DNA from: a virus
DNA: 64,000 nucleotides
IMG/VR virus record: IMGVR_UViG_3300023179_000080
Span: 10,284-74,283 of that record
Strand: one strand, 5' to 3'
Positions 1-59,649 of this stretch are shown piece by piece; the stretch's first letter is position 1, and each line of letters starts with the position of its first letter. A program made the position numbers and the translations under genes. The notes beneath the pieces were generated by a model. That model was not told where the DNA came from, ran no database searches, and saw only the letters and a program-made list of their open reading frames with translations.

Positions 1-77
1 TCGACGGGGTGAAGAAGCCCCTCTACATCTACAACAGCCAGGCCACCGCGGTGGCTGACATGGCGGCTGCGGGTTGA
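1..77 (+). CDS. 3' end of hypothetical protein (partial)
   Basis: GC3-rich open frame ...DGVKKPLYIYNSQATAVADMAAAG ending TGA at 75-77. Confidence 0.6.
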   Translation, partial: DGVKKPLYIYNSQATAVADMAAAG

Positions 78-87
78 TCCCGCTCGA

Positions 88-161
88 GCGGGGGTAGCTC
101 GATTGGACAGAGCAGCGGACTCTTAATCCGTTGGTTACGGGTTCAACTCCCGTCCCCCGCA
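88..161 (+). tRNA. tRNA-Lys(CTT)
   Basis: Acceptor GCGGGGG/CCCCCGC; anticodon arm GCGGA-CTCTTAA-TCCGT; T loop GTTCAAC. Confidence 0.93.
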
Positions 162-204
162 CTGGACCGCCGGTGTTCCCGGACTGTCACCGGCCGGTCC
201 CCTT

Positions 205-276
205 GCCGCCTTAGCTCAGTGGTAGAGCAACGGTTTTGTAAACCGTAGGTCTCGAGTTCAAGTCTCGACGGCGGCT
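205..276 (+). tRNA. tRNA-Thr(TGT)
   Basis: TAGCTCAGTGGTAGAGC D arm; ACGGT-TTTGTAA-ACCGT; GTTCAAG T loop. Confidence 0.93.
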
Positions 277-310
277 CTGATGAAAGGAATTTGACACACA
301 CTAACAGTAT

Positions 311-388
311 GCCCCTGTACCGGACTCGACTTCTAATCGAGATTACCGTAGCTGGATGACGCAGGTTCGAATCCTGCCAGGGGTGCCA
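311..388 (+). tRNA. atypical D-armless tRNA-Arg(TCT)-like RNA with encoded CCA
   Basis: Acceptor GCCCCTG/CAGGGGT+G+CCA; CTCGA-CTTCTAA-TCGAG; T arm GCAGG-TTCGAAT-CCTGC; only 7 nt where the D arm should be; 19-nt variable region. Confidence 0.75.
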
Positions 389-403
389 CCCCCACCGGGG
401 ACC

Positions 404-475
404 GCGGAGGTAGCTCAATGGTAGAGCCCCAGTTTTCCAAACTGGATGTTGCGGGTTCGAGCCCCGTCCTCCGCT
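404..475 (+). tRNA. tRNA-Gly(TCC)
   Basis: GCGGAGG/CCTCCGC; CCAGT-TTTCCAA-ACTGG. Confidence 0.93.
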
Positions 476-481
476 CACATC

Positions 482-557
482 GGATCAATAGCTCAGTCGG
501 TAGAGCAGCGGACTTTTAATCCGTTGGTCGTGGGTTCGAGCCCCACCTGATCCACCA
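482..557 (+). tRNA. tRNA-Lys(TTT)
   Basis: GCGGA-CTTTTAA-TCCGT; canonical D and T arms; encoded CCA. Confidence 0.93.
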
Positions 558-598
558 CCCCGCCACGACCGGCGGGGGAGACAAAGAGAGAATACACA

Positions 599-892
599 AT
601 GAGCAAGCGATTCCGTACCACAGACATGGACACCACCCCCAACCGCCCAGACACCACCCAGTTCTACACGATGTACGTGGTGCGTGACTCCCACAAGCGG
701 CAGTTCCTCACCCGACGCGCGTACAGCGGCGCCGCGGCACGCGGTGGGTGGGACACCCTGCCGGGGGCACACCTGTTCCAGAGCATCTGGCAGGCGTCCT
801 CGTGCGCCTCGTCGATCGCCCGTCGTAACCCCGGCGCTCGTCGGCCCGAGGTCCGCCCAGTCCTCGTGACCCGCCGCATCCCACGGGCCTGA
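599..892 (+). CDS. hypothetical protein
   Basis: ATG after purine-rich RBS; GC3-biased 97 aa ORF between tRNAs. Confidence 0.65.
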   Translation: MSKRFRTTDMDTTPNRPDTTQFYTMYVVRDSHKRQFLTRRAYSGAAARGGWDTLPGAHLFQSIWQASSCASSIARRNPGARRPEVRPVLVTRRIPRA

Positions 893-900
893 CCCCATCC

Positions 901-962
901 GTCACCCCCGGGTCCGCACCCCACCGGACCGGGCCATCCCCCTCGGCGGACCCGGGGGTGAC
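901..962. repeat. 17-bp perfect inverted repeat (long hairpin)
   Basis: GTCACCCCCGGGTCCGC (901-917) / GCGGACCCGGGGGTGAC (946-962). Confidence 0.85.
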
Positions 963-1000
963 ACCTACTTATCACCGCGCGGACTGGTGCCGCGCACCCA

Positions 1001-1074
1001 CTCCCCGTAGCTCAGCTGGAGAGAGCGGCGGTTTCCTAAACCGCAGGCCGGATGTTCGAGACGTCCCGGGGAGA
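1001..1074 (+). tRNA. tRNA-Arg(CCT)
   Basis: CTCCCCG/CGGGGAG; GCGGT-TTCCTAA-ACCGC; D loop CAGCTGGAGAG. Confidence 0.92.
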
Positions 1075-1107
1075 CCCCACACGAGAGACCGCAACAAGGA
1101 GAGAGAC

Positions 1108-1329
1108 ATGAGTGACATGACACCTGATCGCGCCGTGGGCGCAGCACTGGCCGCGACCGCCGCTGCCGCGAGGGCATGCGAGGAGGCCGCGCTCGTCCTC
1201 CGCGACGCTGGGCGGGAGCCGGATCCCAACTACTCCACCGCGGTGGGGCACCTCGAGCTCGCGGCCGTTGAACTAGCGGCGATGGGCCGGCGGGTCCTGG
1301 GGCACAGCGTGAGACCCCGGGTGCCCTGA
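1108..1329 (+). CDS. hypothetical Ala-rich protein
   Basis: AAGGAG RBS before ATG 1108. Confidence 0.65.
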   Translation: MSDMTPDRAVGAALAATAAAARACEEAALVLRDAGREPDPNYSTAVGHLELAAVELAAMGRRVLGHSVRPRVP

Positions 1330-1655
1330 TGGGGCGGGGGCGCCCCCCATCGCAGGGCCGGCAGAGGGGCTGTATACGGGGTGGGGGGCGCCCCTTCAGA
1401 GGGCCATCGGAGGGCACTGCCATGCCGGGGGGCGCCCCCCATCAGAGTGGCCATCTGAGCCCCTATATGGGGGGCGGGCGCCCCCCCTCTGCGGCATACT
1501 GTGTGGAGGTTCTCTGCGGCGGCGGGCGCTAAGCCCCTCCAAAAATTCCCGGGACACATTTCCCATCCGATTGACCCCTCCCGCCCGAAATTTCCCGGGA
1601 GGATTTCTGGATCCCCGGTACCCATGCCCTCCCCCGGAGGGTGGGGCGCCCACGT
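1330..1655. repeat. GC-rich non-coding region with repeated GGG(G)CGCCC(C) palindromes
   Basis: Palindromes centred at ~1341, 1389, 1433, 1479 and 1647; AAATT(T)CCC(C)GGGA twice. Confidence 0.65.
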
Positions 1656-15745: not shown

Positions 15746-16928
15746 CTGAATAACTTACGGCACAAGGCCGTAAGGTTCGAGGGTAGTCTTGCCTTCATCG
15801 ACTTTACCCTTTAGGGACTTCAGCTCGGATGATTGTGTCATCCTTCGGCCCTTCCTGCGAATCTCTTTCTTCACAGGATCGATCTTTGGGCGTAATGCGA
15901 TGTTGAAAGCTGCATTTACGTCCGCATGATCAATGTGTTCACAGTGCAAACAGTGAAACACTTTTCCATTTCTGCTCTCTTTATCAACTACTCCGCAACG
16001 AGAACATGAAGTTGATGTCCAAGCAGGATCAACAACATTCAACTCGACACCTTGCTCCTTAGCCTTGTAAGTGAGAAGCATTCTCACCTGATAGAATGGC
16101 CAAGAGTTCAAGGTGTGATTTCCTTGTTTACGGTACTTCTTCGTACAATCTTTTCTAATCCCAGAAAGATCTTCTAGCTTAATTCCAACTCCACTTTTCT
16201 TTGCTTCTTTGACTATTTTAGTTGTGATCTTGTGAATCGCATCAGTCGTCTTCCTTCTCTCACGATCCTTGATCTTCTTCAGCTGTGACCACTGCTTCTT
16301 CTCTTGCAGGTTCTGCCTGATATTCTTATACTTCTTCTTCAAGAAAGGAATCTGTTTTCCAAACTTCTGAACCTTGCCTGTAAGCGGATTTGCCACAACA
16401 ATGGAGTGAGAAGTTGAGTTAAGATCGATGCCGATGAAACTTTTAGGTTCATCGGCCTGTTGATCGGGGAAAGTCACGGAAACATAAGCCCATTTCTGAT
16501 CAATCTCGACTTGATTGAGTTTTGTCCAACCAGAAGGAAACCAACAGCGAAATTCTGCGTTGAGGCTTGGAATTCTTATTTTTCTAGTTTCTAGATCAAA
16601 CTTTAGATTTTGACCAGGAACAGTTAGCTTCACTCTCTTCGGGTTGATTGATTTGATCTTCTTGTTCAGTCCATATTTTCTAACGATCTGATTAGCAATC
16701 TCAGATTTTAGGCCAATGTGTTTGACGACTTTTGTTGAGACAAGACCATTTTCAAGAGCAAACTGCGCAACTTTAACTGCCTTCTCAAAGAGAGAAGAAT
16801 CAAAGTTCACACCATGCTTTACCTTGAACGTCTTGATCATCTCCATGATAAGTATCTTTACTTAAGAAAAATTTTAACAAAAATTCATGATATGGCACAA
16901 GGCCGATATCCTTTCTTTTTGTTGATGT
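15746..16928 (-). mobile_element. IS200/IS605-family (IS1341-like, tnpB-only) insertion sequence
   Basis: AT-rich island; subterminal hairpins CGGCCTTGTGCC at both ends; LE guide AAAG with TTTAC target; RE guide GAAC with TCAG end. Confidence 0.85.
15755..16846 (-). CDS. tnpB: TnpB RNA-guided endonuclease
   Basis: RuvC I GIDLN, RuvC II LEDL, TSTSCSRCG..CLHC Zn finger, RuvC III HADVNAAFNI. Confidence 0.93.
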   Translation of the reverse strand: MEMIKTFKVKHGVNFDSSLFEKAVKVAQFALENGLVSTKVVKHIGLKSEIANQIVRKYGLNKKIKSINPKRVKLTVPGQNLKFDLETRKIRIPSLNAEFRCWFPSGWTKLNQVEIDQKWAYVSVTFPDQQADEPKSFIGIDLNSTSHSIVVANPLTGKVQKFGKQIPFLKKKYKNIRQNLQEKKQWSQLKKIKDRERRKTTDAIHKITTKIVKEAKKSGVGIKLEDLSGIRKDCTKKYRKQGNHTLNSWPFYQVRMLLTYKAKEQGVELNVVDPAWTSTSCSRCGVVDKESRNGKVFHCLHCEHIDHADVNAAFNIALRPKIDPVKKEIRRKGRRMTQSSELKSLKGKVDEGKTTLEPYGLVP

Positions 16929-17835: not shown

Positions 17836-19053
17836 ATGATAGCGATTGTGAAGGACGGGCGCCGGCCCATCAAGATGTGGGTCGAGGGTGTTCCTGTCGA
17901 AGAGCAGGCCGTACAGCAGCTCGAGCGGATTGCAGCTCTTCCCTTCGTCGGCCCGCACGTGGCAGTGATGCCCGACGTGCACCTGGGCAAAGGCGCGACG
18001 GTGGGCTCTGCGGTCCCGACGTCGGGTGCGGTGGTGCCCGCGGCGGTCGGAGTCGACATCGGCTGTGGGATGATCGCCGTGCGCACGTCGATGACGTCGC
18101 ACGATCTGCCTGATGACCTGTCGGGCCTGCGATCGGCGATCGAGGCCGCGGTTCCCCACGGTCGAACGGACGACGGAGGTCGCCACGATCGAGGCCGGTG
18201 GGGTGACGTGCCTGACACGGTGGCTTCGGTTTGGACGGACCTCCAGCCCGGTTGGCAGCGGATCCTCGAGAAGCACCCGAAGGTCCACGGCCGGTCGGGA
18301 GTCACGGCGGAGCACTTGGGCACGCTGGGGACGGGCAACCACTTCATCGAGCTGTGCCTCGACGAGGCTGACCGCGTCTGGGTGATGCTGCACTCGGGCT
18401 CGCGAGGGGTGGGCAACCGCATCGGCTCCTACTTCATCGAGCGTGCGAAGGAGGAGATGAAACGGTGGTACATCAACCTGCCCGACCAGGACCTTGCTTA
18501 CCTGCCCGAGGGCTCGCAGCTCTTCGGAGACTACGTTGAGGCGGTGGGTTGGGCTCAGGAGTACGCATCTGCCAACCGCCAGCTCATGTTGGCGGCTGCC
18601 GTCCGCGCGATGAAGGGCCACCTCCGGCCCAAGTTCGACCTGACGGACGATGCGGTGAACTGCCACCACAACTACATCTCCAAGGAGCACCACTTCGGCG
18701 AGAACCTGTGGGTGACGCGGAAGGGTGCCGTGTCGGCACGCGCCGGCCAGATGGGCATCATCCCGGGTTCCATGGGAACGCGGTCGTACATCGTCCGGGG
18801 CAAGGGCAACGCGGACTCACTGTGCTCGTGCTCGCACGGTGCGGGTCGCCGGATGTCCCGAGCAGAGGCACAGCGGACGTTCACGCTGGCGGACCACCGT
18901 GCTGCCACGGAGGGTGTCGAGTGCCGCAAGGACCGCGAGGTGATCGACGAGACGCCCGCCGCGTACAAGGACATCGATCAGGTGATGGCAGCGCAGGCCG
19001 ACCTCGTCGAGGTCGTGCACACGCTCAAACAAGTGCTCTGCGTGAAAGGCTGA
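17836..19053 (+). CDS. rtcB: RtcB RNA ligase
   Basis: MPDVHLGKG, VGVDIGCG, LGTLGTGNHFIE, HSGSRG, HNY, SCSHGAGR, DETPAAYKDI. Confidence 0.97.
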   Translation: MIAIVKDGRRPIKMWVEGVPVEEQAVQQLERIAALPFVGPHVAVMPDVHLGKGATVGSAVPTSGAVVPAAVGVDIGCGMIAVRTSMTSHDLPDDLSGLRSAIEAAVPHGRTDDGGRHDRGRWGDVPDTVASVWTDLQPGWQRILEKHPKVHGRSGVTAEHLGTLGTGNHFIELCLDEADRVWVMLHSGSRGVGNRIGSYFIERAKEEMKRWYINLPDQDLAYLPEGSQLFGDYVEAVGWAQEYASANRQLMLAAAVRAMKGHLRPKFDLTDDAVNCHHNYISKEHHFGENLWVTRKGAVSARAGQMGIIPGSMGTRSYIVRGKGNADSLCSCSHGAGRRMSRAEAQRTFTLADHRAATEGVECRKDREVIDETPAAYKDIDQVMAAQADLVEVVHTLKQVLCVKG

Positions 19054-19165: not shown

Positions 19166-19504
19166 ATGATGCGTGAATGTATCGAATGCGGTTGTAAGTT
19201 CGACCCCAACTCCCCCGCCAAGCGTCGTGCCGGCGGCCTCATCACCACGTGTGCCGAGTGCTCCGACGAGCCCGCGGTCAAGTACCTCGGCCTCGCCAAC
19301 GGCGACGGCAAGCAGGCGTCGGTCACGGTACTTGCCTTCTCGTCGACCGCCGATCGTGAGCGCTACTCTTCCTTCTACCGAAATAATGCCGGCTACCATC
19401 GTGGTCGCAGTTGTCAACTGGGTGCTCACCTATCCACCGACCCAGGTGTACACTTTCGCACTATTTCTCAAGACTCTCCTCGCAATCACAAAGGCCGCCT
19501 TTAG
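19166..19504 (+). CDS. Zn-finger hypothetical protein
   Basis: CIEC...CAEC; early promoter at 19130. Confidence 0.75.
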   Translation: MMRECIECGCKFDPNSPAKRRAGGLITTCAECSDEPAVKYLGLANGDGKQASVTVLAFSSTADRERYSSFYRNNAGYHRGRSCQLGAHLSTDPGVHFRTISQDSPRNHKGRL

Positions 19505-20264
19505 TCTGATCAAGTTGTTTCAGCTTTCGTGAAGCCCACATTCGTTTTGAATTACAACTTTTACACAAGCCATTCACGCGCGGCGGCTTTCTGGTGACAA
19601 TCTTAATTTTTGTTACAATTTTATTGCAATCCTTGCAGTTGTAACTAAATTCTTCTGTATTGTTGTGGGATCTTCCAGCTTTATCGGCGCGCTCAATCAA
19701 AGAATTAGATATTTTCTTCTTGGTTTCTTCAGAAATTATCCTCTTTTTTCCTCTGTGACATGCAGCTAATCTTTCGATCCGTAAAGCCTTTTCTTCTTCC
19801 GAATATGCACCCCAGCGAGATCTTGTCTGTTCTGCCAGCTTTGCTTTTGCTTCTGGATTTGAAAACTGACGTTTTGCAGCTTCACTGATTTTCTTTTTCG
19901 TTTCTTCGGATAGCTTGATTCCCAATCTTGCCTTGCTCATCTTTTCTCTTGTCTCTTTTGTGGGATTAATCCCACCCGCTCCTCCTTCGTTCATGTTGTA
20001 AAGAATGATTCCTTCAGAAAGCTTTTGCTTGATCAGCCTGTGCTCTTCGGCAAATGCTTCTGCTTCAGACTCATGTTCACTCACAACTTCAAAGGTGAAG
20101 TTTTCAACACCGTGTTTGTGAATTGCAGCATGAACAACTTGTCGAAAAGATTTCCTGTGCTGATCTGCAACAAAATGTCCTTTTTTTCTTGATTCAGGAT
20201 CTTTCGTTTTTCCGACATACTGTTTGCCGTTTACTAGGCATGTTATAACATAAACATAGTTCAT
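19461..20264 (-). CDS. GIY-YIG homing endonuclease with NUMOD3 repeats
   Basis: YVYVIT..NGKQYVGKT..R...H; YNMNEGG; SEETKKKIS repeats; AT-rich. Confidence 0.9.
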   Translation of the reverse strand: MNYVYVITCLVNGKQYVGKTKDPESRKKGHFVADQHRKSFRQVVHAAIHKHGVENFTFEVVSEHESEAEAFAEEHRLIKQKLSEGIILYNMNEGGAGGINPTKETREKMSKARLGIKLSEETKKKISEAAKRQFSNPEAKAKLAEQTRSRWGAYSEEEKALRIERLAACHRGKKRIISEETKKKISNSLIERADKAGRSHNNTEEFSYNCKDCNKIVTKIKIVTRKPPRVNGLCKSCNSKRMWASRKLKQLDQTKGGLCDCEESLEK

Positions 20265-20357
20265 GCATATAAGTATGTGTACGGCAACAAAACAGGATAC
20301 CATAGGGGATAATATGCTGTTGTCAGTATATACCGCCACCAACCATAAGGGGCGCAT

Positions 20358-53661: not shown

Positions 53662-55167
53662 TTAGACTACTCTGAAGTTGGGAGACGATGCGGGATATCT
53701 TGTTTTTATTCCATTCCTATCTATCAATATATCAATCGTGTAAGAATGGCCCGAGGGTAAGCAACTTGTATCAAATTTGAAGAACATCCCCTTGCTATCG
53801 TTAGAGACAAGAGTTGATTTTTTGTCCTCGTCGAATGGTATCAATATTTCGTCCGTCACAGAATTTCTGATCTGATAATAAGCATTTTTAACGACTATAC
53901 CGGGAAGTTCAACAGGCAATCTGACGACTTTTACGTATGGGGTAGTTTGATCAAATATGTTTAACCGCGCAAATGCTAAGTCTCCTTGTGTGTATTGCTC
54001 TGAGACATTATTGACGCTTACGGTGAATCTATCTGTAGACCTTGCAGAAGTGCTGGATGGTAGATTAAACTGAAGCACACTCCCGGTTGCGTACGGGACG
54101 GTCTTATCAAGCGACATCCACACAGGAGTCAGCTTGACACTGCCCGAAATTGACAGTGAGTTAGCAATATACTGATCTGATCTTAAGACGGTTACATCAG
54201 AGTAGTACGTACCTGATACAAAAGCTGTGCTTGGTGCGTCATAGGAATACTGGGATCCCGTAAAATATTGCGTATAGCTTCCCAGTGAAGAAGTTGCAGT
54301 CAACATCAAGAATAAGCAATTAGAGCCCAGTACTGCTGCTTGATTACTTCCTGACGTCAAGTTTTCTAATGAGTCACCGATGTAGTTGTATAGAACTATC
54401 CGTTGTGCGTGGTTGAATGATAGGTTTGGTGTATCGTCTCTTATTGAATCATCAAATCCGAATACTAGCTGTGGATGTTTCCTTTCATCAAAAGCACTTC
54501 TGCTTGCAAATCTTTTGACAAAGTAAGTCTTCTGATCTGCTTCTAACTGAGAAGCAAAAGACAATCTAAACCCGCTGTCGGGCAGTTCTTTTGATAGAGT
54601 TGCAGATACTATAGCAGTCACATCGATCAAGAGATCTTCTGTGCCCGTCTTGAAAGTCTGTGTGACTTCAGTCACAGGTATGTTGGGAGAAGATGTAATG
54701 TAGTCGACCGAGGAAGTAGAGAACCCGCCCGCGCTAGCACCAGGTGCTATCCAATTCACACCAAATGAAGAGGAAATCCAGTTACACGCGTCTTTATCAG
54801 AGTAGTATGAAACGTCTCTTCCCACTCCTTCGTCAAAAGACGCAGATAGTGGGAACAAGCTCAGCACAAAGTTGGCTGGGGTCGGTTGTCCTCCATAGAC
54901 ATCGTGCAATTTTAGCTTGCACCAGAAACTTTGTTTGTTTATATCGATTTGGTTATCTCTTACAAGTTCTCTCAGGGGATCCAGATCAAAGTGCAACAGT
55001 GCTCTTGATTTTTCAGTATTGGGAATCGATCCGCTAAAAGAAGCTCCGTAAAGCTTGAATACGTCTAAAGTGCCAGCATTTCCCGTATTGCTTACGGTCC
55101 TTCGGGTATTCGATACAACTTTATCAGTGATGTATGAATCTTTGTCAGCTTTGATGCTTTTAAACAC
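53662..55167 (-). CDS. virion structural protein (DNRLRE-like N-terminus)
   Basis: ADKDSYIT..SRALLHFDL..FDEGVG..F.TGTEDL.IDVT. Confidence 0.75.
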   Translation of the reverse strand: MFKSIKADKDSYITDKVVSNTRRTVSNTGNAGTLDVFKLYGASFSGSIPNTEKSRALLHFDLDPLRELVRDNQIDINKQSFWCKLKLHDVYGGQPTPANFVLSLFPLSASFDEGVGRDVSYYSDKDACNWISSSFGVNWIAPGASAGGFSTSSVDYITSSPNIPVTEVTQTFKTGTEDLLIDVTAIVSATLSKELPDSGFRLSFASQLEADQKTYFVKRFASRSAFDERKHPQLVFGFDDSIRDDTPNLSFNHAQRIVLYNYIGDSLENLTSGSNQAAVLGSNCLFLMLTATSSLGSYTQYFTGSQYSYDAPSTAFVSGTYYSDVTVLRSDQYIANSLSISGSVKLTPVWMSLDKTVPYATGSVLQFNLPSSTSARSTDRFTVSVNNVSEQYTQGDLAFARLNIFDQTTPYVKVVRLPVELPGIVVKNAYYQIRNSVTDEILIPFDEDKKSTLVSNDSKGMFFKFDTSCLPSGHSYTIDILIDRNGIKTRYPASSPNFRVV

Positions 55168-57019
55168 TGGACACTGCCTTTCCAATGATGTTCACGTCGG
55201 GATATCTAATCTCAAAGATCGATCCATCTGGGGGATAGATTATTTGATTTCGAGTATTCAGGTCTGGGTCAAAAATAGTGCTTGAATAATCACGATTTGC
55301 TACTGTATTAGAAAGATTGTTGAATTTAACGTTATCTACAGCTATTACCCCTGATCTGCTGAAGATCGTCGATATGACGTCGGATATCACAATCGGCTGA
55401 TTGATTTGCATATTCGTAACATCAAACTGCTTTTTCAAGTCAGTTATTATGTTTTGTATGACAATGCTTTTGTTCAAAGACGGATCAACGACAATCGAAA
55501 ACTTTAGTTCAAGATTTATTACAGATGCATCAAAGATATCAACTGCGTCAGATATCATTCTATAGGCATTCAGATATTTCTTTAAATTAATCTTCAGAGT
55601 GTCGGGCGACGCAGTAAGTTTTGAATTTGCGTCCCTTGATATAATGAATAGTCGGGCTGCCAATGGATTGTCGGGATTGCTAGTTACTAAAGCTCTGAAC
55701 ACTCTTCCAAAGTTGCTCGGTAGAGTGTACACTCTTGCAAGTAGATCTTCCCGCGTTACAATTCTTTCTTGAGCATTTTTAGTTGCCGGTGCAAGTGCCA
55801 ACAGTGCGTCCGTCGATGGTGCATCATCACCACCTGCAGACGGACTCGGATTTGAAGCTTCAACAGAATTTCTAACCTGCAACTGTTGACCAGGGCTCGG
55901 GTTCAGCGGAAAATTTATATTGAGCACTGTTATATTTCTAACTGAATTTGCGGATACGTTGTGAGATAAGCCACCACCGTACCTGTAAGTTACGCTGTAA
56001 GTTGTATTTGCAGTCGCTGCACCCAACGTCGAAGTCTGCAAAAGTTTTTGTGGGTTTACTGCAACTCTTGAGAAAGTCTGAGAAAAGGGAAGAGGTATCG
56101 CAAATTCAGATGGGTCCGGGACTATACCTGAATTTATGCTGTCAGCGGACCCTCCGCCGAATGTCATGCTCGTTGTTCTACTTCCCAATGCAACTTCAGT
56201 TATGAATCTGTATGGAGCAGGTATTACTTTAAGTGAATCTTTCACCAAATTATTGTCACCAGCAGAATTAAGCACATTCTTATACACAACGTCATTAGTC
56301 AAAGTCTCAACTTCATAATAGATGTTGCCGTATCCGTCAATAACGTTGATTATCTGCGTAACGTCAGGGTTAGAAAGCTGCACACGTCTAAAGGGAATAA
56401 AGTCTCCGATTGCAAAAGATTCTGTAGTCTGCGATCCAGAAGTAGCGCGGCCCGATTTCTTCAATATCTTAGACACCAGGCTTCCTGCTACCCTCCTACC
56501 ATTTGATACCGCTACATCACTTGCTAACACGACAGATCCCGACGCGTCATAATCCCAAAATTGCACATTTTCTAATAGTGTGAATTCAGTTCCGTTTGAA
56601 GACCTTACACTGGTACCGTCTAGTATCGTGGGTATCAACGCGGGATCGGGTCTAAGCGATCCATCATCAAGTAATGGTACCTCTACGTAGAAATCAATGT
56701 CCACTATCGAAGCAGAAGCACCCGTTACTTTAACACCTGAATTTCTGAGTATCGTTTGTATACTGGACGTTTCGACTGCTGTGTCCGCATTCAATTCGCC
56801 GTGCAGATGATCCAGATAGAAAGACATGTTGTCACCAATGTACGCAGCCATGTCTAGTAAAAGTCCACCCATCGATGCTTCAGAAAAATCCTGTATTCTA
56901 TCAGGGTAATATTGTCTTGCGTAGTCTAGAAGCACAGTTCTGAATCCATCAAAATCTCTTGCTAGATAATTTCTTTGGCGGACATTGGTCAGAGATACTT
57001 TGTTATTTATTAGGGCCAT
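55160..57019 (-). CDS. baseplate wedge subunit (T4 gp6 / baseplate J-like)
   Basis: YLARDF..L..YA..YYP...DFSE.S.GG..LD.AAY.GD; Q.RIVT.ED. Confidence 0.88.
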   Translation of the reverse strand: MALINNKVSLTNVRQRNYLARDFDGFRTVLLDYARQYYPDRIQDFSEASMGGLLLDMAAYIGDNMSFYLDHLHGELNADTAVETSSIQTILRNSGVKVTGASASIVDIDFYVEVPLLDDGSLRPDPALIPTILDGTSVRSSNGTEFTLLENVQFWDYDASGSVVLASDVAVSNGRRVAGSLVSKILKKSGRATSGSQTTESFAIGDFIPFRRVQLSNPDVTQIINVIDGYGNIYYEVETLTNDVVYKNVLNSAGDNNLVKDSLKVIPAPYRFITEVALGSRTTSMTFGGGSADSINSGIVPDPSEFAIPLPFSQTFSRVAVNPQKLLQTSTLGAATANTTYSVTYRYGGGLSHNVSANSVRNITVLNINFPLNPSPGQQLQVRNSVEASNPSPSAGGDDAPSTDALLALAPATKNAQERIVTREDLLARVYTLPSNFGRVFRALVTSNPDNPLAARLFIISRDANSKLTASPDTLKINLKKYLNAYRMISDAVDIFDASVINLELKFSIVVDPSLNKSIVIQNIITDLKKQFDVTNMQINQPIVISDVISTIFSRSGVIAVDNVKFNNLSNTVANRDYSSTIFDPDLNTRNQIIYPPDGSIFEIRYPDVNIIGKAVSSV

Positions 57020-57053
57020 CGGTTGTGTCTCTTAGCGATAAGTAGAATTTCTG

Positions 57054-57524
57054 CTATATTACATACAAAACAATTTGTAGACCTTTTCCGAAAGCTCCGA
57101 ATGAGGGTACGTTGTATTTGATATTGACTCTTATGACACCAGTGTTCTTATTCTCTAGATTATCTATTTGAGAACTAAACGTCTCAAGTTCTATATACGG
57201 CATCCATCTCCCAACAGCATCCCTTATTCTAGTGATGGCTTGTGTATCAAAATCATCCTGAGACACTAGATCTGTTGTCAGGGGTTTTAGATTGGCTCCA
57301 AAGTCGTATAGCCCTAATCTCTCTCCCCAATTTGTCAAAAGAAGATTTCGGAGGTTGTCTGCCATCTGATCTTCAATACTGTAGTTCATTGCAAATATCC
57401 CCTCCGATTTACTGCCCAACTCTAGGGGCGTTTTTATGCCGAAGGGAATTGCAGACGTAGCAAGAACTTCAGAAATTATCTGATCTTGTGTTTTACCAAC
57501 ACTTTTGAAGCTATACGTTGCCAT
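57054..57524 (-). CDS. baseplate wedge protein (gp25/GPW-like)
   Basis: NLRNLLLTNWGER..DFGANL..RWMPYI. Confidence 0.88.
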   Translation of the reverse strand: MATYSFKSVGKTQDQIISEVLATSAIPFGIKTPLELGSKSEGIFAMNYSIEDQMADNLRNLLLTNWGERLGLYDFGANLKPLTTDLVSQDDFDTQAITRIRDAVGRWMPYIELETFSSQIDNLENKNTGVIRVNIKYNVPSFGAFGKGLQIVLYVI

Positions 57525-57582
57525 AAGTCTAATTATAGGTGTAAGCAACTTAGACCCACGATTCTGGTGGGCATTGACTTCA

Positions 57583-59649
57583 TTACGTTATCTTTGACTT
57601 GCTGCTTATAGTTGATACTGCAGCTGACACTGAAACCTTAGCTGTACTAATTGCAGTATTTACTGCTTGAGCAGGCGTCGCGACGGGAGGCAATGCACTC
57701 GATAGTCCTTGTATGAAAGTATTGATTGCGTCGATCTGAGCCTGTAGACCGTTTATTGCATTCGTGGTCTCTACCGATTTGGCAGCAGTAACAAGTGGTC
57801 CAGCAGCAGGATTCGGGCTTGTAGGTGAAGAGATTGAAGTGTTTGATCCTCCACCTGAAGATCTTCCCGTCACATTCGCAGCTGTGAGGGGTGTTGGGGC
57901 CCCGGGCAAAGTTAAATTCCCACCAGCTAAAGAAAGTATACCAGAAGAAGCATTGATCACTATCGCAGTCCCGCCTATTGCTATTGTGCTTGAATTCAAG
58001 TCTATCACAATGGCTCCTCCCCCGATAGAGACACGATTTGAAGATGCATCAAAGACTGCTAAGTTGTCTGCAATATTTACTTTTTTACCGCTAACGTCAA
58101 GCACTTGCAAAGCGCCCGCTCCGCCGCCTCCAAAAGTTATTTTGTTCGATGAGTTGTCAAAGACGCTAAGAGCTGTATCTACTTTGTCGCTGCCTATGAT
58201 TGCAGATCCGTTGTTGGGCAGAGGAGCGATGAATCGATTGTTTCCTGAATCAAGAGTCAACAAAGCTTTGCTTGTGTCTACTGCGTCTTTATTTTGACCA
58301 ACAGAGAATACGCGATCTTTAGACGTGCTGACAACGACATCACCATTTTGTTTGAGCATCAATGATGCCCACTTATCAGCATCGTTGATCTCTTCTTTTA
58401 TATCAACGCCATCAGGAGATTGCTTGATGTTAAACCCGGTTGAAATTAGCTCAACATCTGAACGGCTGATTGCGCGGATCTTGTCACTCTTCAGGATTAT
58501 TGAAGCATCACCTGCTGCTCCGTCAGTTATTGAAAAGTCTTTATTGTAGTCAGATAAAGAAAAATTTGCATCTGTATTAGTTCTTTGAGATATCAAAATT
58601 CTGCTTCTGTCATTCTTAAGGTCAGGATCTCCTTCACGGATCGATAAGCTATCGGGTGATTTGTTAAGCTCTTTCTTTATGAAAGAACCCTTTGTCTTTC
58701 CTCTAACGTCTCGAATGCTTGTAGTGTCTGAAGACTTACCAAAAGTTTCGTCAGTTTGGCCACGACCAGCAACTAAATCTATAGATCCAGCAGACCCTCT
58801 AATGTCTTTTTTTGGATATACCTGTATCTTTGTTTTTGAAAATCGGTCTAAGTCTGTGACAGGGTCTGAATACTCTGCAAGAGGACCCGTTCTGTCTGTG
58901 CCCAACACGACCAACGTGTTATTTGTGCCCTCTAAAACAACGTCACCGGGTCTAGATCTAAATCTGGGAACCGACTCATATGTCGTGACTCTTGAAGCAT
59001 CGGTGCTAGTAACCAATTTTTCAAATACGTCTTCATCATCGCTGGGGAGTGTTGGACTGTGCTGACTCGTGATTCTATCATCGTCTATCTGAACGACGGG
59101 AGCGTTTCTAAGCTCATGCCATGCGTATGAACTGTCATTGATAGACGATTCATTTTCGTGCCTTTCAAAAGTAGTTGGGAAATAGCTAATTTCTGAATTT
59201 CTAGTGCTGGGGTGAGCGTGATTGACATCGTCGGCAACTGAGGTTTCAATAATTCTACAAAACCAATAAGCGACATCAGACTTATTTGAGGCGGGGCTTT
59301 CCAATAGTGTCCAGACTGCCTCGCCTGGCTTGCAGGGTAAAGACAGATGCGAAGGAAAAAATGGAAAAACAAAAAGAGGATCAGAATTTTCACCGACCCT
59401 TTTTGCTATAATCGTATTTCGGGGAAGCACGTCTGCGTACTTCATATTTGTGATTCCCAGTGATTGCCAGTACGTTTTTCTCTTTTCGTCTTTACAGTCA
59501 TTTGTGGGATCAGATATCACTTCTAGAACGACCATTCTAACGAAGTGTGGCAGTTGATCGGGTATAAATCTTTGTTCAGATTCTCTGCTACTCAGTGTTC
59601 CTTCAGAGAACCTTTTTATGTTGTTAGATATTGAATCTTGAAACTTCAT
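57583..59649 (-). CDS. baseplate hub/spike (gp5-like) protein
   Basis: PFFP.HL.LP.KPGE.VW; GDVVLEG.NN; beta-repeat C-terminus. Confidence 0.7.
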   Translation of the reverse strand: MKFQDSISNNIKRFSEGTLSSRESEQRFIPDQLPHFVRMVVLEVISDPTNDCKDEKRKTYWQSLGITNMKYADVLPRNTIIAKRVGENSDPLFVFPFFPSHLSLPCKPGEAVWTLLESPASNKSDVAYWFCRIIETSVADDVNHAHPSTRNSEISYFPTTFERHENESSINDSSYAWHELRNAPVVQIDDDRITSQHSPTLPSDDEDVFEKLVTSTDASRVTTYESVPRFRSRPGDVVLEGTNNTLVVLGTDRTGPLAEYSDPVTDLDRFSKTKIQVYPKKDIRGSAGSIDLVAGRGQTDETFGKSSDTTSIRDVRGKTKGSFIKKELNKSPDSLSIREGDPDLKNDRSRILISQRTNTDANFSLSDYNKDFSITDGAAGDASIILKSDKIRAISRSDVELISTGFNIKQSPDGVDIKEEINDADKWASLMLKQNGDVVVSTSKDRVFSVGQNKDAVDTSKALLTLDSGNNRFIAPLPNNGSAIIGSDKVDTALSVFDNSSNKITFGGGGAGALQVLDVSGKKVNIADNLAVFDASSNRVSIGGGAIVIDLNSSTIAIGGTAIVINASSGILSLAGGNLTLPGAPTPLTAANVTGRSSGGGSNTSISSPTSPNPAAGPLVTAAKSVETTNAINGLQAQIDAINTFIQGLSSALPPVATPAQAVNTAISTAKVSVSAAVSTISSKSKIT

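What the first reader, a model, noticed from the sequence alone, without database searches (positions are those of the whole stretch)
311..388. tRNA-Arg(UCU)-like RNA with no D-arm and an Arg-type D-loop relocated into the variable region
Seen: an intact acceptor stem with CCA, an intact T arm and a perfect anticodon arm (UCU). Only TACCGGA lies between the acceptor and anticodon stems. A 19-nt variable segment contains AGCTGGAT, like the D-loop of the neighbouring normal tRNA-Arg (CAGCTGGAG). CCGG (320-323) can pair with CTGG (352-355). Known: the D-loop GG contacts the T loop, and A20 is an ArgRS identity element. Inference: a topologically rearranged tRNA that rebuilds the elbow from the variable side. 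It could decode AGA while evading tRNA-cleaving defences, or act as a tRNA mimic or decoy.
Basis: partly seen in the sequence, partly recalled or inferred. Interest (0 to 1): 0.8.

Follow-up and report, generated by a model that had tools for sequence, protein, structure and literature searches.

The report
Phage arginine tRNA with rewired D-arm
This 78-base phage gene is very probably a working arginine tRNA (it reads AGA) whose D-arm pieces come in a different order along the chain from the universal cloverleaf, a layout shared by more than a hundred phage sequences, missed by a standard tRNA finder and not described in any paper I could search.

Summary
Window 311-388 has an intact acceptor stem with CCA, a T arm and a UCU anticodon arm. 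Only UACCGGA precedes the anticodon arm, and 19 nt follow it.

It is not a decaying pseudo-tRNA. Pattern scans of viral contigs gave 99 distinct sequences with the same layout, and all helices covary.

It is 321-323 (CGG) paired with 346-348 (CCG). This is a D-stem whose 3' strand lies before the anticodon arm, while its 5' strand and the D-loop (U13 A14 G15 .. G18 G19 A20) lie after it.

- Twelve different fully paired triplets occupy this helix.
- The tertiary 15-48 pair covaries (A-U 90, G-C 7; the window has G351-C360).
- Members with arginine anticodons keep A20. Members of the same scaffold with isoleucine anticodons have U20 and A73. Both match the bacterial identity rules.
- AGA is the commonest arginine codon in the window's long ORFs.
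- ARAGORN of 99 members, and five cultured phages carry the gene unannotated.

Charging and the 3D fold are inferred, not shown. Any link to host defences is untested. This scan has found the same family before on other DNA, and I found no paper describing it.

The parts
311..317 (+). Acceptor stem, 5' strand (positions 1-7), GCCCCUG
   Evidence: Pairs with 378-384. In 99 homologues all 7 pairs show changes on both sides and 98.7% of cells are paired.
318..319 (+). U8 A9
   Evidence: UA in 98 of 99 homologues. A9 is invariant and T8 nearly invariant in alignment A1.
320..323 (+). 3' strand of the rewired D-stem (equivalent to positions 22-25): C22 C23 G24 G25. C321, G322 and G323 pair with G348, C347 and C346. 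C320 faces U349 as a conserved Y-U mismatch (13-22).
   Evidence: Pair 12-23 is kept in 91/92, 11-24 in 90/92 and 10-25 in 77/92. Twelve distinct fully paired triplets occur; 0/2000 shuffles reach the observed values. Tool count on A1: 97.5% paired, four Watson-Crick types per pair.
324..324 (+). A26 equivalent, joining the D-stem strand to the anticodon stem
   Evidence: One base (A or C in most members) in all 92 members with a 7-nt linker.
325..341 (+). Anticodon arm: stem 325-329/337-341, loop CUUCUAA 330-336, anticodon UCU at 332-334 (C35 = 333, U36 = 334)
   Evidence: All five stem pairs covary. The loop was fixed by the search patterns, so its invariance carries no information.
342..345 (+). 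Connector AUUA (takes the place of positions 44-45), running from the top of the anticodon stem to the foot of the D-stem
   Evidence: Length is 3-5 nt in 88 of 99 members and 8 nt in 10. No conserved pairing.
346..349 (+). 5' strand of the rewired D-stem (positions 10-13): C10 C11 G12 U13
   Evidence: Same as for 320-323.
350..359 (+). D-loop equivalent: A14 G15 C16 U17 G18 G19 A20, then U G A (the last A is taken as the A21 equivalent)
   Evidence: T13, A14, R15 and G are nearly invariant in A1. GGA occurs in 94/99; the other five read AAGGGA. The same AAUUGGAU loop is found in ordinary phage tRNA-Arg(UCU) genes of the same contigs. A20 occurs in 94/99 Arg members against 2/17 non-Arg members.
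360..360 (+). C48 equivalent, tertiary partner of G15 (351)
   Evidence: 15-48 covaries: A-U 90, G-C 7, other 2 of 99; 0/2000 shuffles reach the observed value.
361..377 (+). T arm: stem 361-365/373-377, loop UUCGAAU 366-372
   Evidence: Four of the five stem pairs covary and 98.6% of cells are paired. The loop was fixed by the search pattern.
378..388 (+). Acceptor stem 3' strand 378-384, discriminator G73 (385), encoded CCA 386-388
   Evidence: The discriminator is G in 53, A in 35 and U in 11 of 99; CCA is encoded in 57 of 99.
88..557 (+). Same-strand tRNA array holding the gene: Lys(CUU) 88-162, Thr(UGU) 205-277, the rewired Arg 311-388, Gly(UCC) 404-476, Lys(UUU) 482-557
   Evidence: ARAGORN and Rfam. 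Gaps of 33 and 15 nt to the neighbouring tRNA genes.

Best explanation
Window 311-388 encodes a functional phage tRNA-Arg(UCU) that reads AGA. It has every structural element of a class I tRNA, but the block 'D-stem 5' strand + D-loop' (positions 10-21) sits after the anticodon arm instead of before it.

Proposed mechanism, steps inferred unless marked:
1. The RNA is transcribed with the surrounding same-strand tRNA array, and its ends are processed like those of its neighbours. CCA is encoded.
2. C321 G322 G323 (equivalent to 23-25) pair with C346 C347 G348 (10-12), forming a 3-bp D-stem stacked on the anticodon stem. This pairing is shown by covariation.
3. The strand leaving that stem forms the usual core and elbow contacts: U8-A14 (318-350), G15-C48 (351-360; shown by covariation), and G18 G19 (354-355) with the T loop. 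This gives an L shape.
4. A20 (356), C35, U36 and G73 let the host ArgRS charge it.
5. It supplies decoding capacity for AGA, the phage's commonest arginine codon, especially in its low-GC structural genes.

Why the wiring differs is unknown. It may be a neutral rearrangement that spread among phages, or it may protect against an enzyme that needs the ordinary D-arm.
For: Conservation:
From these I extracted 99 distinct sequences with the same layout.
- On MAFFT alignment A1, 96.5% of cells are paired against 64.2% shuffled. The covariation score is 0.851 against 0.219 shuffled, and 0.10-0.17 when partners are slid by 1-3 columns; 0/500 shuffles reach it.

Rewired D-stem:
- Columns were anchored on the acceptor end and on the UAR motif, not on complementarity.
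- Pairs are kept in 77/92, 90/92 and 91/92 sequences, with 12 distinct fully paired triplets such as CGG:CCG, CUC:GAG, ACC:GGU, CAC:GUG and CCU:AGG.

Tertiary core: 15-48 is A-U in 90 and G-C in 7 of 99. U8, A9, A14 and G18 G19 are near-invariant.

Identity elements:
- A20 is present in at least 94/99 Arg(UCU) members, and the discriminator is G or A in 88/99.
- The same scaffold with Ile-type anticodons (UAU, GAU, CAU) has U20 in 14 of the 16 by the script's parse (often U21 too), and A73 in all 16.
- Both match Table 1 of Giege and Eriani 2023: bacterial Arg = A20, C35, U/G36, A/G73; bacterial Ile = A73, U20, U21 (PMC9976931).

Context:
- The gene lies inside a tRNA array.
- Only 4 of 99 loci also hold an ordinary tRNA-Arg(UCU).
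- In one 25-tRNA array (L143) the element sits between tRNA-Thr and tRNA-Ile with gaps of a few bases.

Demand: AGA is 162 of 588 arginine codons (28%) in 26 long ORFs of the window, and 14-20 of 22-32 in the baseplate-region ORFs at 53662-59649.
Against: - No expression, processing, charging or structure data exist for this gene or any homologue I could find. The one RNA-seq lead, PAK_P3 sRNA2, turned out to be a different RNA.
- The D-stem is only 3 bp.
- The 10-25 pair is unpaired in 15 of 92 members, in two sub-classes (UGG..GCA and GCC..AGC).
- Covariation counts are over sequences, not independent events.
- The anticodon loop and T loop were fixed by my search patterns.
- The window's sequence is part of model R1, so its 80-bit score is by construction.
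It does not say which part.
Confidence: 0.8

Rival explanations
1. One reading: a truly D-armless tRNA in which CCGG 320-323 pairs with CUGG 352-355, enclosing the anticodon arm, and the relocated GGA rebuilds the elbow.
For: The pairing is possible in this sequence and appears in its MFE structure. In 83-85 of 92 homologues positions 22/23 (Y, C) could pair with G19/G18.
Against: - G18 G19 never vary, so the two outer pairs carry no covariation.
- The two inner pairs are at or below shuffle expectation (54 vs 59.0; 29 vs 33.1).
- When position 23 becomes A or G (7 sequences), G18 stays G while position 12 changes to keep 12-23.
- GG cannot both pair with the linker and dock on the T loop.
Confidence: 0.04
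2. A tRNA-like decoy or mimic that is not used in translation. It might soak up an anticodon nuclease or another tRNA-binding host factor, or act as a regulatory RNA.
For: The unusual wiring is almost confined to phages. Of 57 pattern hits in 596 billion bases of cellular genome contigs, only 7 loci hold true members. All 7 are on MAG contigs, and 4 of them hold 7-25 ordinary tRNA genes within 8 kb. Phage tRNAs are known to counter tRNA-targeting defences (van den Berg et al. 2023, PMC10264068, title seen).
Against: - A decoy for an anticodon nuclease needs no synthetase determinants outside the anticodon loop. Yet A20 and G/A73 are kept with Arg anticodons, and U20(U21) and A73 with Ile anticodons.
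- The acceptor stem and CCA are intact.
- The element replaces, rather than accompanies, the ordinary tRNA-Arg(UCU) in 95 of 99 loci.
- AGA is the phage's top arginine codon.
Confidence: 0.1
3. A working tRNA, but Y-shaped like mitochondrial D-armless tRNAs. The CGG:CCG helix merely lengthens the anticodon arm, and the GGA segment makes no elbow contact.
For: The 321-323/346-348 helix is collinear with the anticodon stem in secondary structure. E. coli translation can accept an artificial D-armless tRNA (Edelmann et al. 2024, PMC11551756).
Against: The full canonical tertiary set is conserved where a Y-shape would not need it: U8, A14, G18 G19, the covarying 15-48 pair, and a near-invariant A just before position 48. 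A20 must sit at the outer corner of the L to be read by ArgRS (PMC9976931).
Confidence: 0.05
4. A decaying pseudo-tRNA produced by a local rearrangement.
For: ARAGORN does not call it. The direct repeat UACCG (318-322 and 344-348) could look like a rearrangement scar.
Against: There are 99 distinct homologues in unrelated AT-rich and GC-rich phage contigs, with compensatory changes in every helix. The UACCG repeat is simply the two self-complementary strands of the CGG:CCG stem, and it is replaced by other complementary triplets elsewhere.
Confidence: 0.01

Closest known systems
Canonical class I bacterial and phage tRNA-Arg(UCU) (Rfam RF00005; for example the ordinary tRNA-Arg(UCU) genes at L057:6838-6914 and L102:2658-2731, and the window's own tRNA-Arg(CCU) at 1001-1076)
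   Same: - 7-bp acceptor stem, discriminator G/A and CCA.
- 5-bp anticodon stem with the CUUCUAA loop.
- 5-bp T stem with the UUCGAAU loop.
- U8 A9.
- A D-loop sequence of the Arg type (AAUUGGAU / AGCUGGAU) with A20.
- The R15-Y48 pair.
- The Arg identity set A20, C35, U36, A/G73.
   Different: The order of segments along the chain differs.
- Canonical: 8-9 | 10-13 | 14-21 | 22-25 | 26 | anticodon arm | 44-48.
- Here: 8-9 | 22-25 | 26 | anticodon arm | connector | 10-13 | 14-21 | 48.

The D-stem is therefore not a hairpin. It encloses the anticodon arm, has 3 rather than 4 pairs, and there is no separate variable loop.
D-armless mitochondrial tRNAs, for example mammalian mt-tRNA-Ser(AGY) and nematode mt-tRNAs (reviewed in PMC4394434; structure paper PMC9427863 listed)
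   Same: There is no D hairpin between the acceptor and anticodon stems. A short linker joins the two. Some metazoan mt-tRNA-Ser also carry a UCU anticodon.
   Different: Those tRNAs have lost the D-loop and the D/T-loop contact, and they need adapted synthetases and EF-Tu. This RNA keeps G18 G19, A14, the 15-48 pair and A20, only elsewhere in the chain. It must work with an ordinary bacterial translation apparatus.
Circularly permuted tRNA genes of Cyanidioschyzon merolae (from my own knowledge; not checked in a paper here)
   Same: The order of tRNA parts in the gene departs from the cloverleaf order.
   Different: There the 3' half precedes the 5' half, and processing through a circular intermediate restores a normal cloverleaf. 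Here the acceptor ends are in the normal place and the mature RNA itself would be rewired.
tRNAs with novel cloverleaf proportions (8/4 and 9/3 acceptor/T branches; Mukai et al. 2017, PMC5389517)
   Same: Non-standard tRNA architectures found by mining genome and metagenome data.
   Different: Those change helix lengths but keep the cloverleaf order. This one keeps the 7/5 lengths and changes the connectivity.

Membership tests
tRNA, general (Rfam RF00005) | Score at or above the family's gathering score | tested here: met
   44.6 bits against a gathering score of 29, model positions 1-71.
tRNA, general (Rfam RF00005) | Acceptor stem, anticodon arm (U33, purine 37) and T arm with the UUCGAAU loop | tested here: met
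   Read directly from the sequence. Covariation in all three helices.
Canonical cloverleaf (class I tRNA) | D hairpin (stem 10-13/22-25 with the loop between them) lying between position 9 and the anticodon arm | tested here: not met
   Only 7 nt lie between the stems. cmscan aligns 0 nt to the 11 hidden D-arm model positions.
Canonical cloverleaf (class I tRNA) | Variable loop of 4-5 nt between the anticodon and T stems | tested here: not met
   19 nt in the window, and 17-34 nt in the family.
Bacterial tRNA-Arg identity set (A20, C35, U/G36, A/G73; PMC9976931 Table 1) | The four determinants are present | tested here: met
   A356 follows G354 G355. C333 and U334 are in the anticodon and G385 is the discriminator. 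Family-wide, A20 is present in at least 94/99. That A356 occupies the spatial position of A20 is an inference.
Bacterial tRNA-Arg | Charged with arginine by ArgRS and used on the ribosome | not testable with these tools
   No charging or expression data were found.
Rewired phage tRNA family (model R1 built here; same family as earlier notes of this scan) | Linker strand 23-25 pairs with strand 10-12 placed after the anticodon arm; then UAR..GG(A) and Y48 | tested here: met
   C321-G348, G322-C347, G323-C346 and G351-C360. R1 gives 80.0 bits, but the window is part of the seed. Other members score 58 bits or more and ordinary tRNAs 38 or less.
D-armless mitochondrial-type tRNA | Loss of the D-loop and of the D-loop/T-loop interaction elements | tested here: not met
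   G18 G19, A14 and the covarying 15-48 pair are retained.
Y RNA-like YrlA (Rfam RF02553) | Score at or above the gathering score | tested here: not met
   26.1 bits against 69. The match spans the T arm of this gene and the D arm of the next tRNA.

The most novel reading that the evidence does not exclude
Phages use a natural non-cloverleaf tRNA in ordinary bacterial translation. The D-arm is block-transposed, yet the L-shaped core is rebuilt. The design is used for the rare-codon readers Arg (UCU, CCU, ACG, UCG) and Ile (UAU, GAU, CAU). It persists because it makes the tRNA invisible or resistant to a host or phage enzyme (nuclease, modification enzyme or defence sensor) that needs the contiguous D hairpin, while ArgRS or IleRS, EF-Tu and the ribosome still accept it.
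Probability: 0.2. Interest if true: 0.95.

Novelty: new variant of a known kind. Interest (0 to 1): 0.82.

Why it matters
[quoted passage not shown] A widespread, covariation-supported family with a different chain topology, working with unmodified bacterial synthetases and ribosomes, would be a natural counter-example.

- **tRNA folding.** It gives a test of which tRNA features are topological and which are merely spatial.
- **Annotation.** It points to a blind spot in gene finding: ARAGORN called 0 of 99 members, and the gene is unannotated in five cultured phages. Phage tRNA repertoires and codon-compensation analyses therefore under-count Arg and Ile readers.
- **Engineering.** It offers a ready-made scaffold for orthogonal tRNA design.
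- **Phage-host conflict.** It provides a handle on whether phage tRNAs are shaped by tRNA-targeting defences.

Tried and rejected
1. **Megablast of window 1-1100 against cultured phages.** It found only ordinary tRNA matches and no close relative of this phage.
2. **RNAalifold on the 99-sequence alignment.** It predicts only the three ordinary helices.
3. **PAK_P3 sRNA2.** Chevallereau et al. 2016 (PMC4933390) describe an abundant late small RNA between two phage tRNAs that shares 11 nt with host T loops. I suspected it was a member and would give expression evidence. Model R1 finds no member in that region. The sequence is a different, longer tRNA-like RNA, so I dropped this lead.
4. **HNH homing endonuclease as a carrier.** An HNH gene abuts the element in SOVA965, PAK_P2 and SSBI34. 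By blastp, only 5 of 99 metagenomic loci have a related ORF within 300 nt. There is no general link at this sensitivity.
5. **A class II (long variable arm) reading.** The 19-nt segment can form only about 2 pairs on its own, and nothing covaries.
6. **Literature.** Eight full-text searches and look-ups in seven papers found no description of this layout. The review of non-canonical tRNAs (PMC7609411) does not contain the words phage, virus or permuted.
7. **Not done.** I did not run tRNAscan-SE (not available) or any 3D RNA modelling.

Full report
**What is there.**
The window is bases 10284-74283 of a 74-kb IMG/VR viral contig that CheckV rates 23% complete. It carries baseplate, tail-fibre and DNA-ligase genes, so it is a fragment of a large tailed phage.

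At the left end lies a same-strand tRNA array: Lys(CUU) 88-162, Thr(UGU) 205-277, Gly(UCC) 404-476 and Lys(UUU) 482-557, with Arg(CCU) further on at 1001-1076. Between Thr and Gly, Rfam's general tRNA model finds 311-385 at 44.6 bits. It does so only by aligning 0 nt in place of the 11 hidden D-arm model positions and treating 16 nt as an insertion. ARAGORN finds nothing there.

- acceptor stem 311-317/378-384, with G385 and CCA;
- linker UACCGGA, 318-324;
- anticodon arm 325-341 with UCU;
- a 19-nt segment 342-360 containing AGCUGGAU;
- T arm 361-377.

**It is a conserved gene, not a relic.**
A first scan of viral contigs kept the linker, the anticodon loop and the T loop. It found five loci in AT-rich contigs with the same layout and different stems.

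A second scan released the linker and found 57 loci. A third released the whole D region, fixing only CUUCUAA, a UAR triplet and GGUUCGAAUCC. Parsing all the loci gave 99 distinct sequences with an acceptor stem, anticodon arm and T arm in the same arrangement.

On a plain MAFFT alignment (A1), the three ordinary helices, two D-stem pairs and the 15-48 pair are 96.5% paired, against 64.2% after shuffling. The covariation score is 0.851, against 0.219 shuffled and 0.10-0.17 with slid partners. No shuffle in 500 reaches it. This refutes the pseudogene reading.

**Which extra helix is real.**
I defined columns by anchors that do not depend on complementarity: bases 3-6 of the linker counted from the end of the acceptor stem, and the four bases ending in the U of the conserved UAR motif.

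With these columns, linker bases 4-6 pair with the three bases before that U:

| Pair | Kept |
|---|---|
| 12-23 | 91/92 |
| 11-24 | 90/92 |
| 10-25 | 77/92 |

Twelve different fully complementary triplets occur, including CGG:CCG, CUC:GAG, CGC:GCG, ACC:GGU, CAG:CUG, CAC:GUG, CCC:GGG, CCU:AGG and CAU:AUG. No shuffle in 2000 reaches the observed counts. In the window these pairs are C321-G348, G322-C347 and G323-C346.

Its two outer pairs exist in most sequences only because GG never varies. Its two inner pairs are at or below shuffle expectation. It also breaks in the seven sequences where linker base 4 is A or G, although the 12-23 pair is maintained there. RNAalifold predicts neither short helix, so this conclusion rests on covariation alone.

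**Reading the anatomy.**
The linker strand runs straight into the 5' strand of the anticodon stem, so it occupies the place of canonical positions 22-25 and 26. The strand after the anticodon arm occupies the place of positions 10-13. It continues as U13 A14 R15 N(1-2) G18 G19 A20, which is a D-loop. In ordinary phage tRNA-Arg(UCU) genes from the same contigs the D-loop has the same sequence, AAUUGGAU.

The last base before the T stem behaves as position 48. It is U when position 15 is A (90 sequences) and C when position 15 is G (7 sequences, including the window's G351 and C360). Two of the 99 are exceptions.

U8 A9, A14 and G18 G19 are near-invariant. So all the pieces that build the tRNA core and elbow are present. 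Only their order along the chain has changed, from 8-9 | 10-21 | 22-26 | anticodon arm | 44-48 to 8-9 | 22-26 | anticodon arm | connector | 10-21 | 48.

That these pieces assemble into the usual L shape is my inference. It rests on textbook tRNA geometry: U8 and positions 46-48 lie next to the top of the D-stem, and 44-45 lie next to its foot. It has not been shown.

**Evidence that it is charged according to its anticodon.**
Model R1, built from A1, separates members (58 bits or more) from ordinary tRNAs (38 bits or less). It also finds the same scaffold with CCU, ACG and UCG anticodons, all arginine, and one with UAU.

A further scan excluded C at position 35, which removes every arginine anticodon. 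It returned 17 distinct members, 16 of them with isoleucine-type anticodons (UAU, GAU, CAU). Their D-loop segment mostly reads GGU(U) instead of GGA, and all 16 have A73.

| Group | A20 present |
|---|---|
| Arg(UCU) members | 94/99 (the other five read AAGGGA) |
| Non-Arg members | 2/17 |

These sequences are related to one another, so the Fisher p of 7e-13 overstates the independence of the counts.

The pattern matches the experimentally defined bacterial identity sets: Arg = A20, C35, U/G36, A/G73; Ile = A73, U20, U21 among others (Giege and Eriani 2023, PMC9976931 Table 1). A nuclease decoy would have no need to keep synthetase determinants outside the anticodon loop. This is the main argument for a real translational role.

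**Demand and context.**
- AGA is the most used arginine codon in 26 long ORFs of the window (162 of 588, 28%). It dominates in the low-GC structural genes, for example 20 of 32 in ORF 55160-57019.
- The 74-kb contig holds no ordinary tRNA-Arg(UCU) and only this one rewired gene.
- Across the family, only 4 of 99 loci also have an ordinary UCU tRNA within the fetched region.

**Distribution.**
- The same pattern hit 57 places in 596 billion bases of bacterial and archaeal genome contigs. Only 7 of those loci hold true members. All 7 are on MAG contigs, and 4 of them hold 7-25 ordinary tRNA genes within the 8-kb locus. The design is essentially phage-borne.
- Cultured phages carry it with no feature annotated under it: Stenotrophomonas SOVA965, Pseudomonas PAK_P2, Salmonella SSBI34, Listeria LPML1 and Streptomyces Comrade. 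All five are confirmed with R1 at 71-77 bits.
- BLAST matches point to further carriers, including Agrobacterium Atu_ph04 and Limnohabitans DC31.
- ARAGORN called 0 of the 99 members.

**Prior knowledge.**
I reached the rewired-stem reading before consulting the scan's earlier notes. Those notes show that this family has been reported many times in this scan on other DNA, with the same reading and also without a literature precedent. One note records that part of a similar claim 'fell' on later checking, without saying which part. I therefore keep shown and inferred steps apart.

My own eight full-text searches found no description. A 2024 paper states that all known bacterial tRNAs are cloverleaves (PMC11551756).

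**Verdict.**
- The best explanation is a functional AGA-reading tRNA-Arg with a block-transposed D-arm (confidence about 0.8).
- The reason for the rewiring is open.

Noticed in passing
L204-L229 (viral contigs), e.g. L211:7053-7112, L216:4622-4683: The same rewired scaffold carries isoleucine-type anticodons (UAU, GAU, CAU). The relocated D-loop mostly reads GGU(U) instead of GGA and the discriminator is A73, matching the bacterial Ile identity set. One member has a UGA anticodon.
   Followed up: partly
L085:8157-8235, L067:10111-10183, L081:944-1017, L036:5121-5197, L038:9822-9902, L031:5734-5812: Rewired tRNAs with the other arginine anticodons (CCU, ACG, UCG) sit in the same phage tRNA clusters as UCU members. 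L081's copy lacks the GG motif.
   Followed up: partly
window 1329-1489: Four copies of the GC-only palindrome GGGGGGCGCCCCCC, about 46 nt apart, just downstream of the tRNA-Arg(CCU) region. Their function is unknown; they could be terminator-like or a repeated protein-binding site.
   Followed up: partly
window 1-64000: The composition is a mosaic. GC falls from 64% at the left end to 41-45% at the right. Neighbouring long ORFs alternate between about 0.41 and 0.66 GC (for example 15755-16846 at 0.42, 17836-19053 at 0.66 and 19461-20357 at 0.41).
   Followed up: no
L203:42345-42478 (Pseudomonas phage PAK_P3, annotated sRNA2): The abundant late 'sRNA2' of PAK_P3 is not a member of this family. 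It looks like a different long tRNA-like RNA: GCTGTGT ... GGAGG-TTCGATT-CCTC A ACACAGC, about 115 nt (record 86305-86419, overlapping the annotated sRNA2 at 86344-86477), lying between tRNA-Tyr and tRNA-Gln.
   Followed up: partly
L125:~440-540 and L140:~170-270 (viral contigs): These are tRNA-like genes with a UCU anticodon loop and a long hairpin in the variable region (class II-like). They are unlike both ordinary tRNA-Arg and the rewired family.
   Followed up: no
L060:2463-2999, L200:2087-2452, L201:2097-2456: An HNH endonuclease gene directly abuts the rewired tRNA in three cultured phages (SOVA965, PAK_P2, SSBI34). Only 5 of 99 metagenomic loci show a blastp-detectable relative within 300 nt.
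   Followed up: partly
window 311 and 384; alignment A1 columns 1 and 89: The first acceptor pair is a G-U wobble in the window and in 31 of 99 family members. That seems an unusually high share for position 1-72 (my impression; not checked against ordinary tRNAs).
   Followed up: no
L022, L026, L056, L077, L079, L085, L089 (and Ile members L211, L216-L225): A sub-class has 4-6 extra bases ending in GAAAAU/GAAAUU between A20 and the T stem. It often also has an 8-nt linker (UAGYCG.., UAACCG..). The extension occurs in both Arg and Ile members.
   Followed up: no
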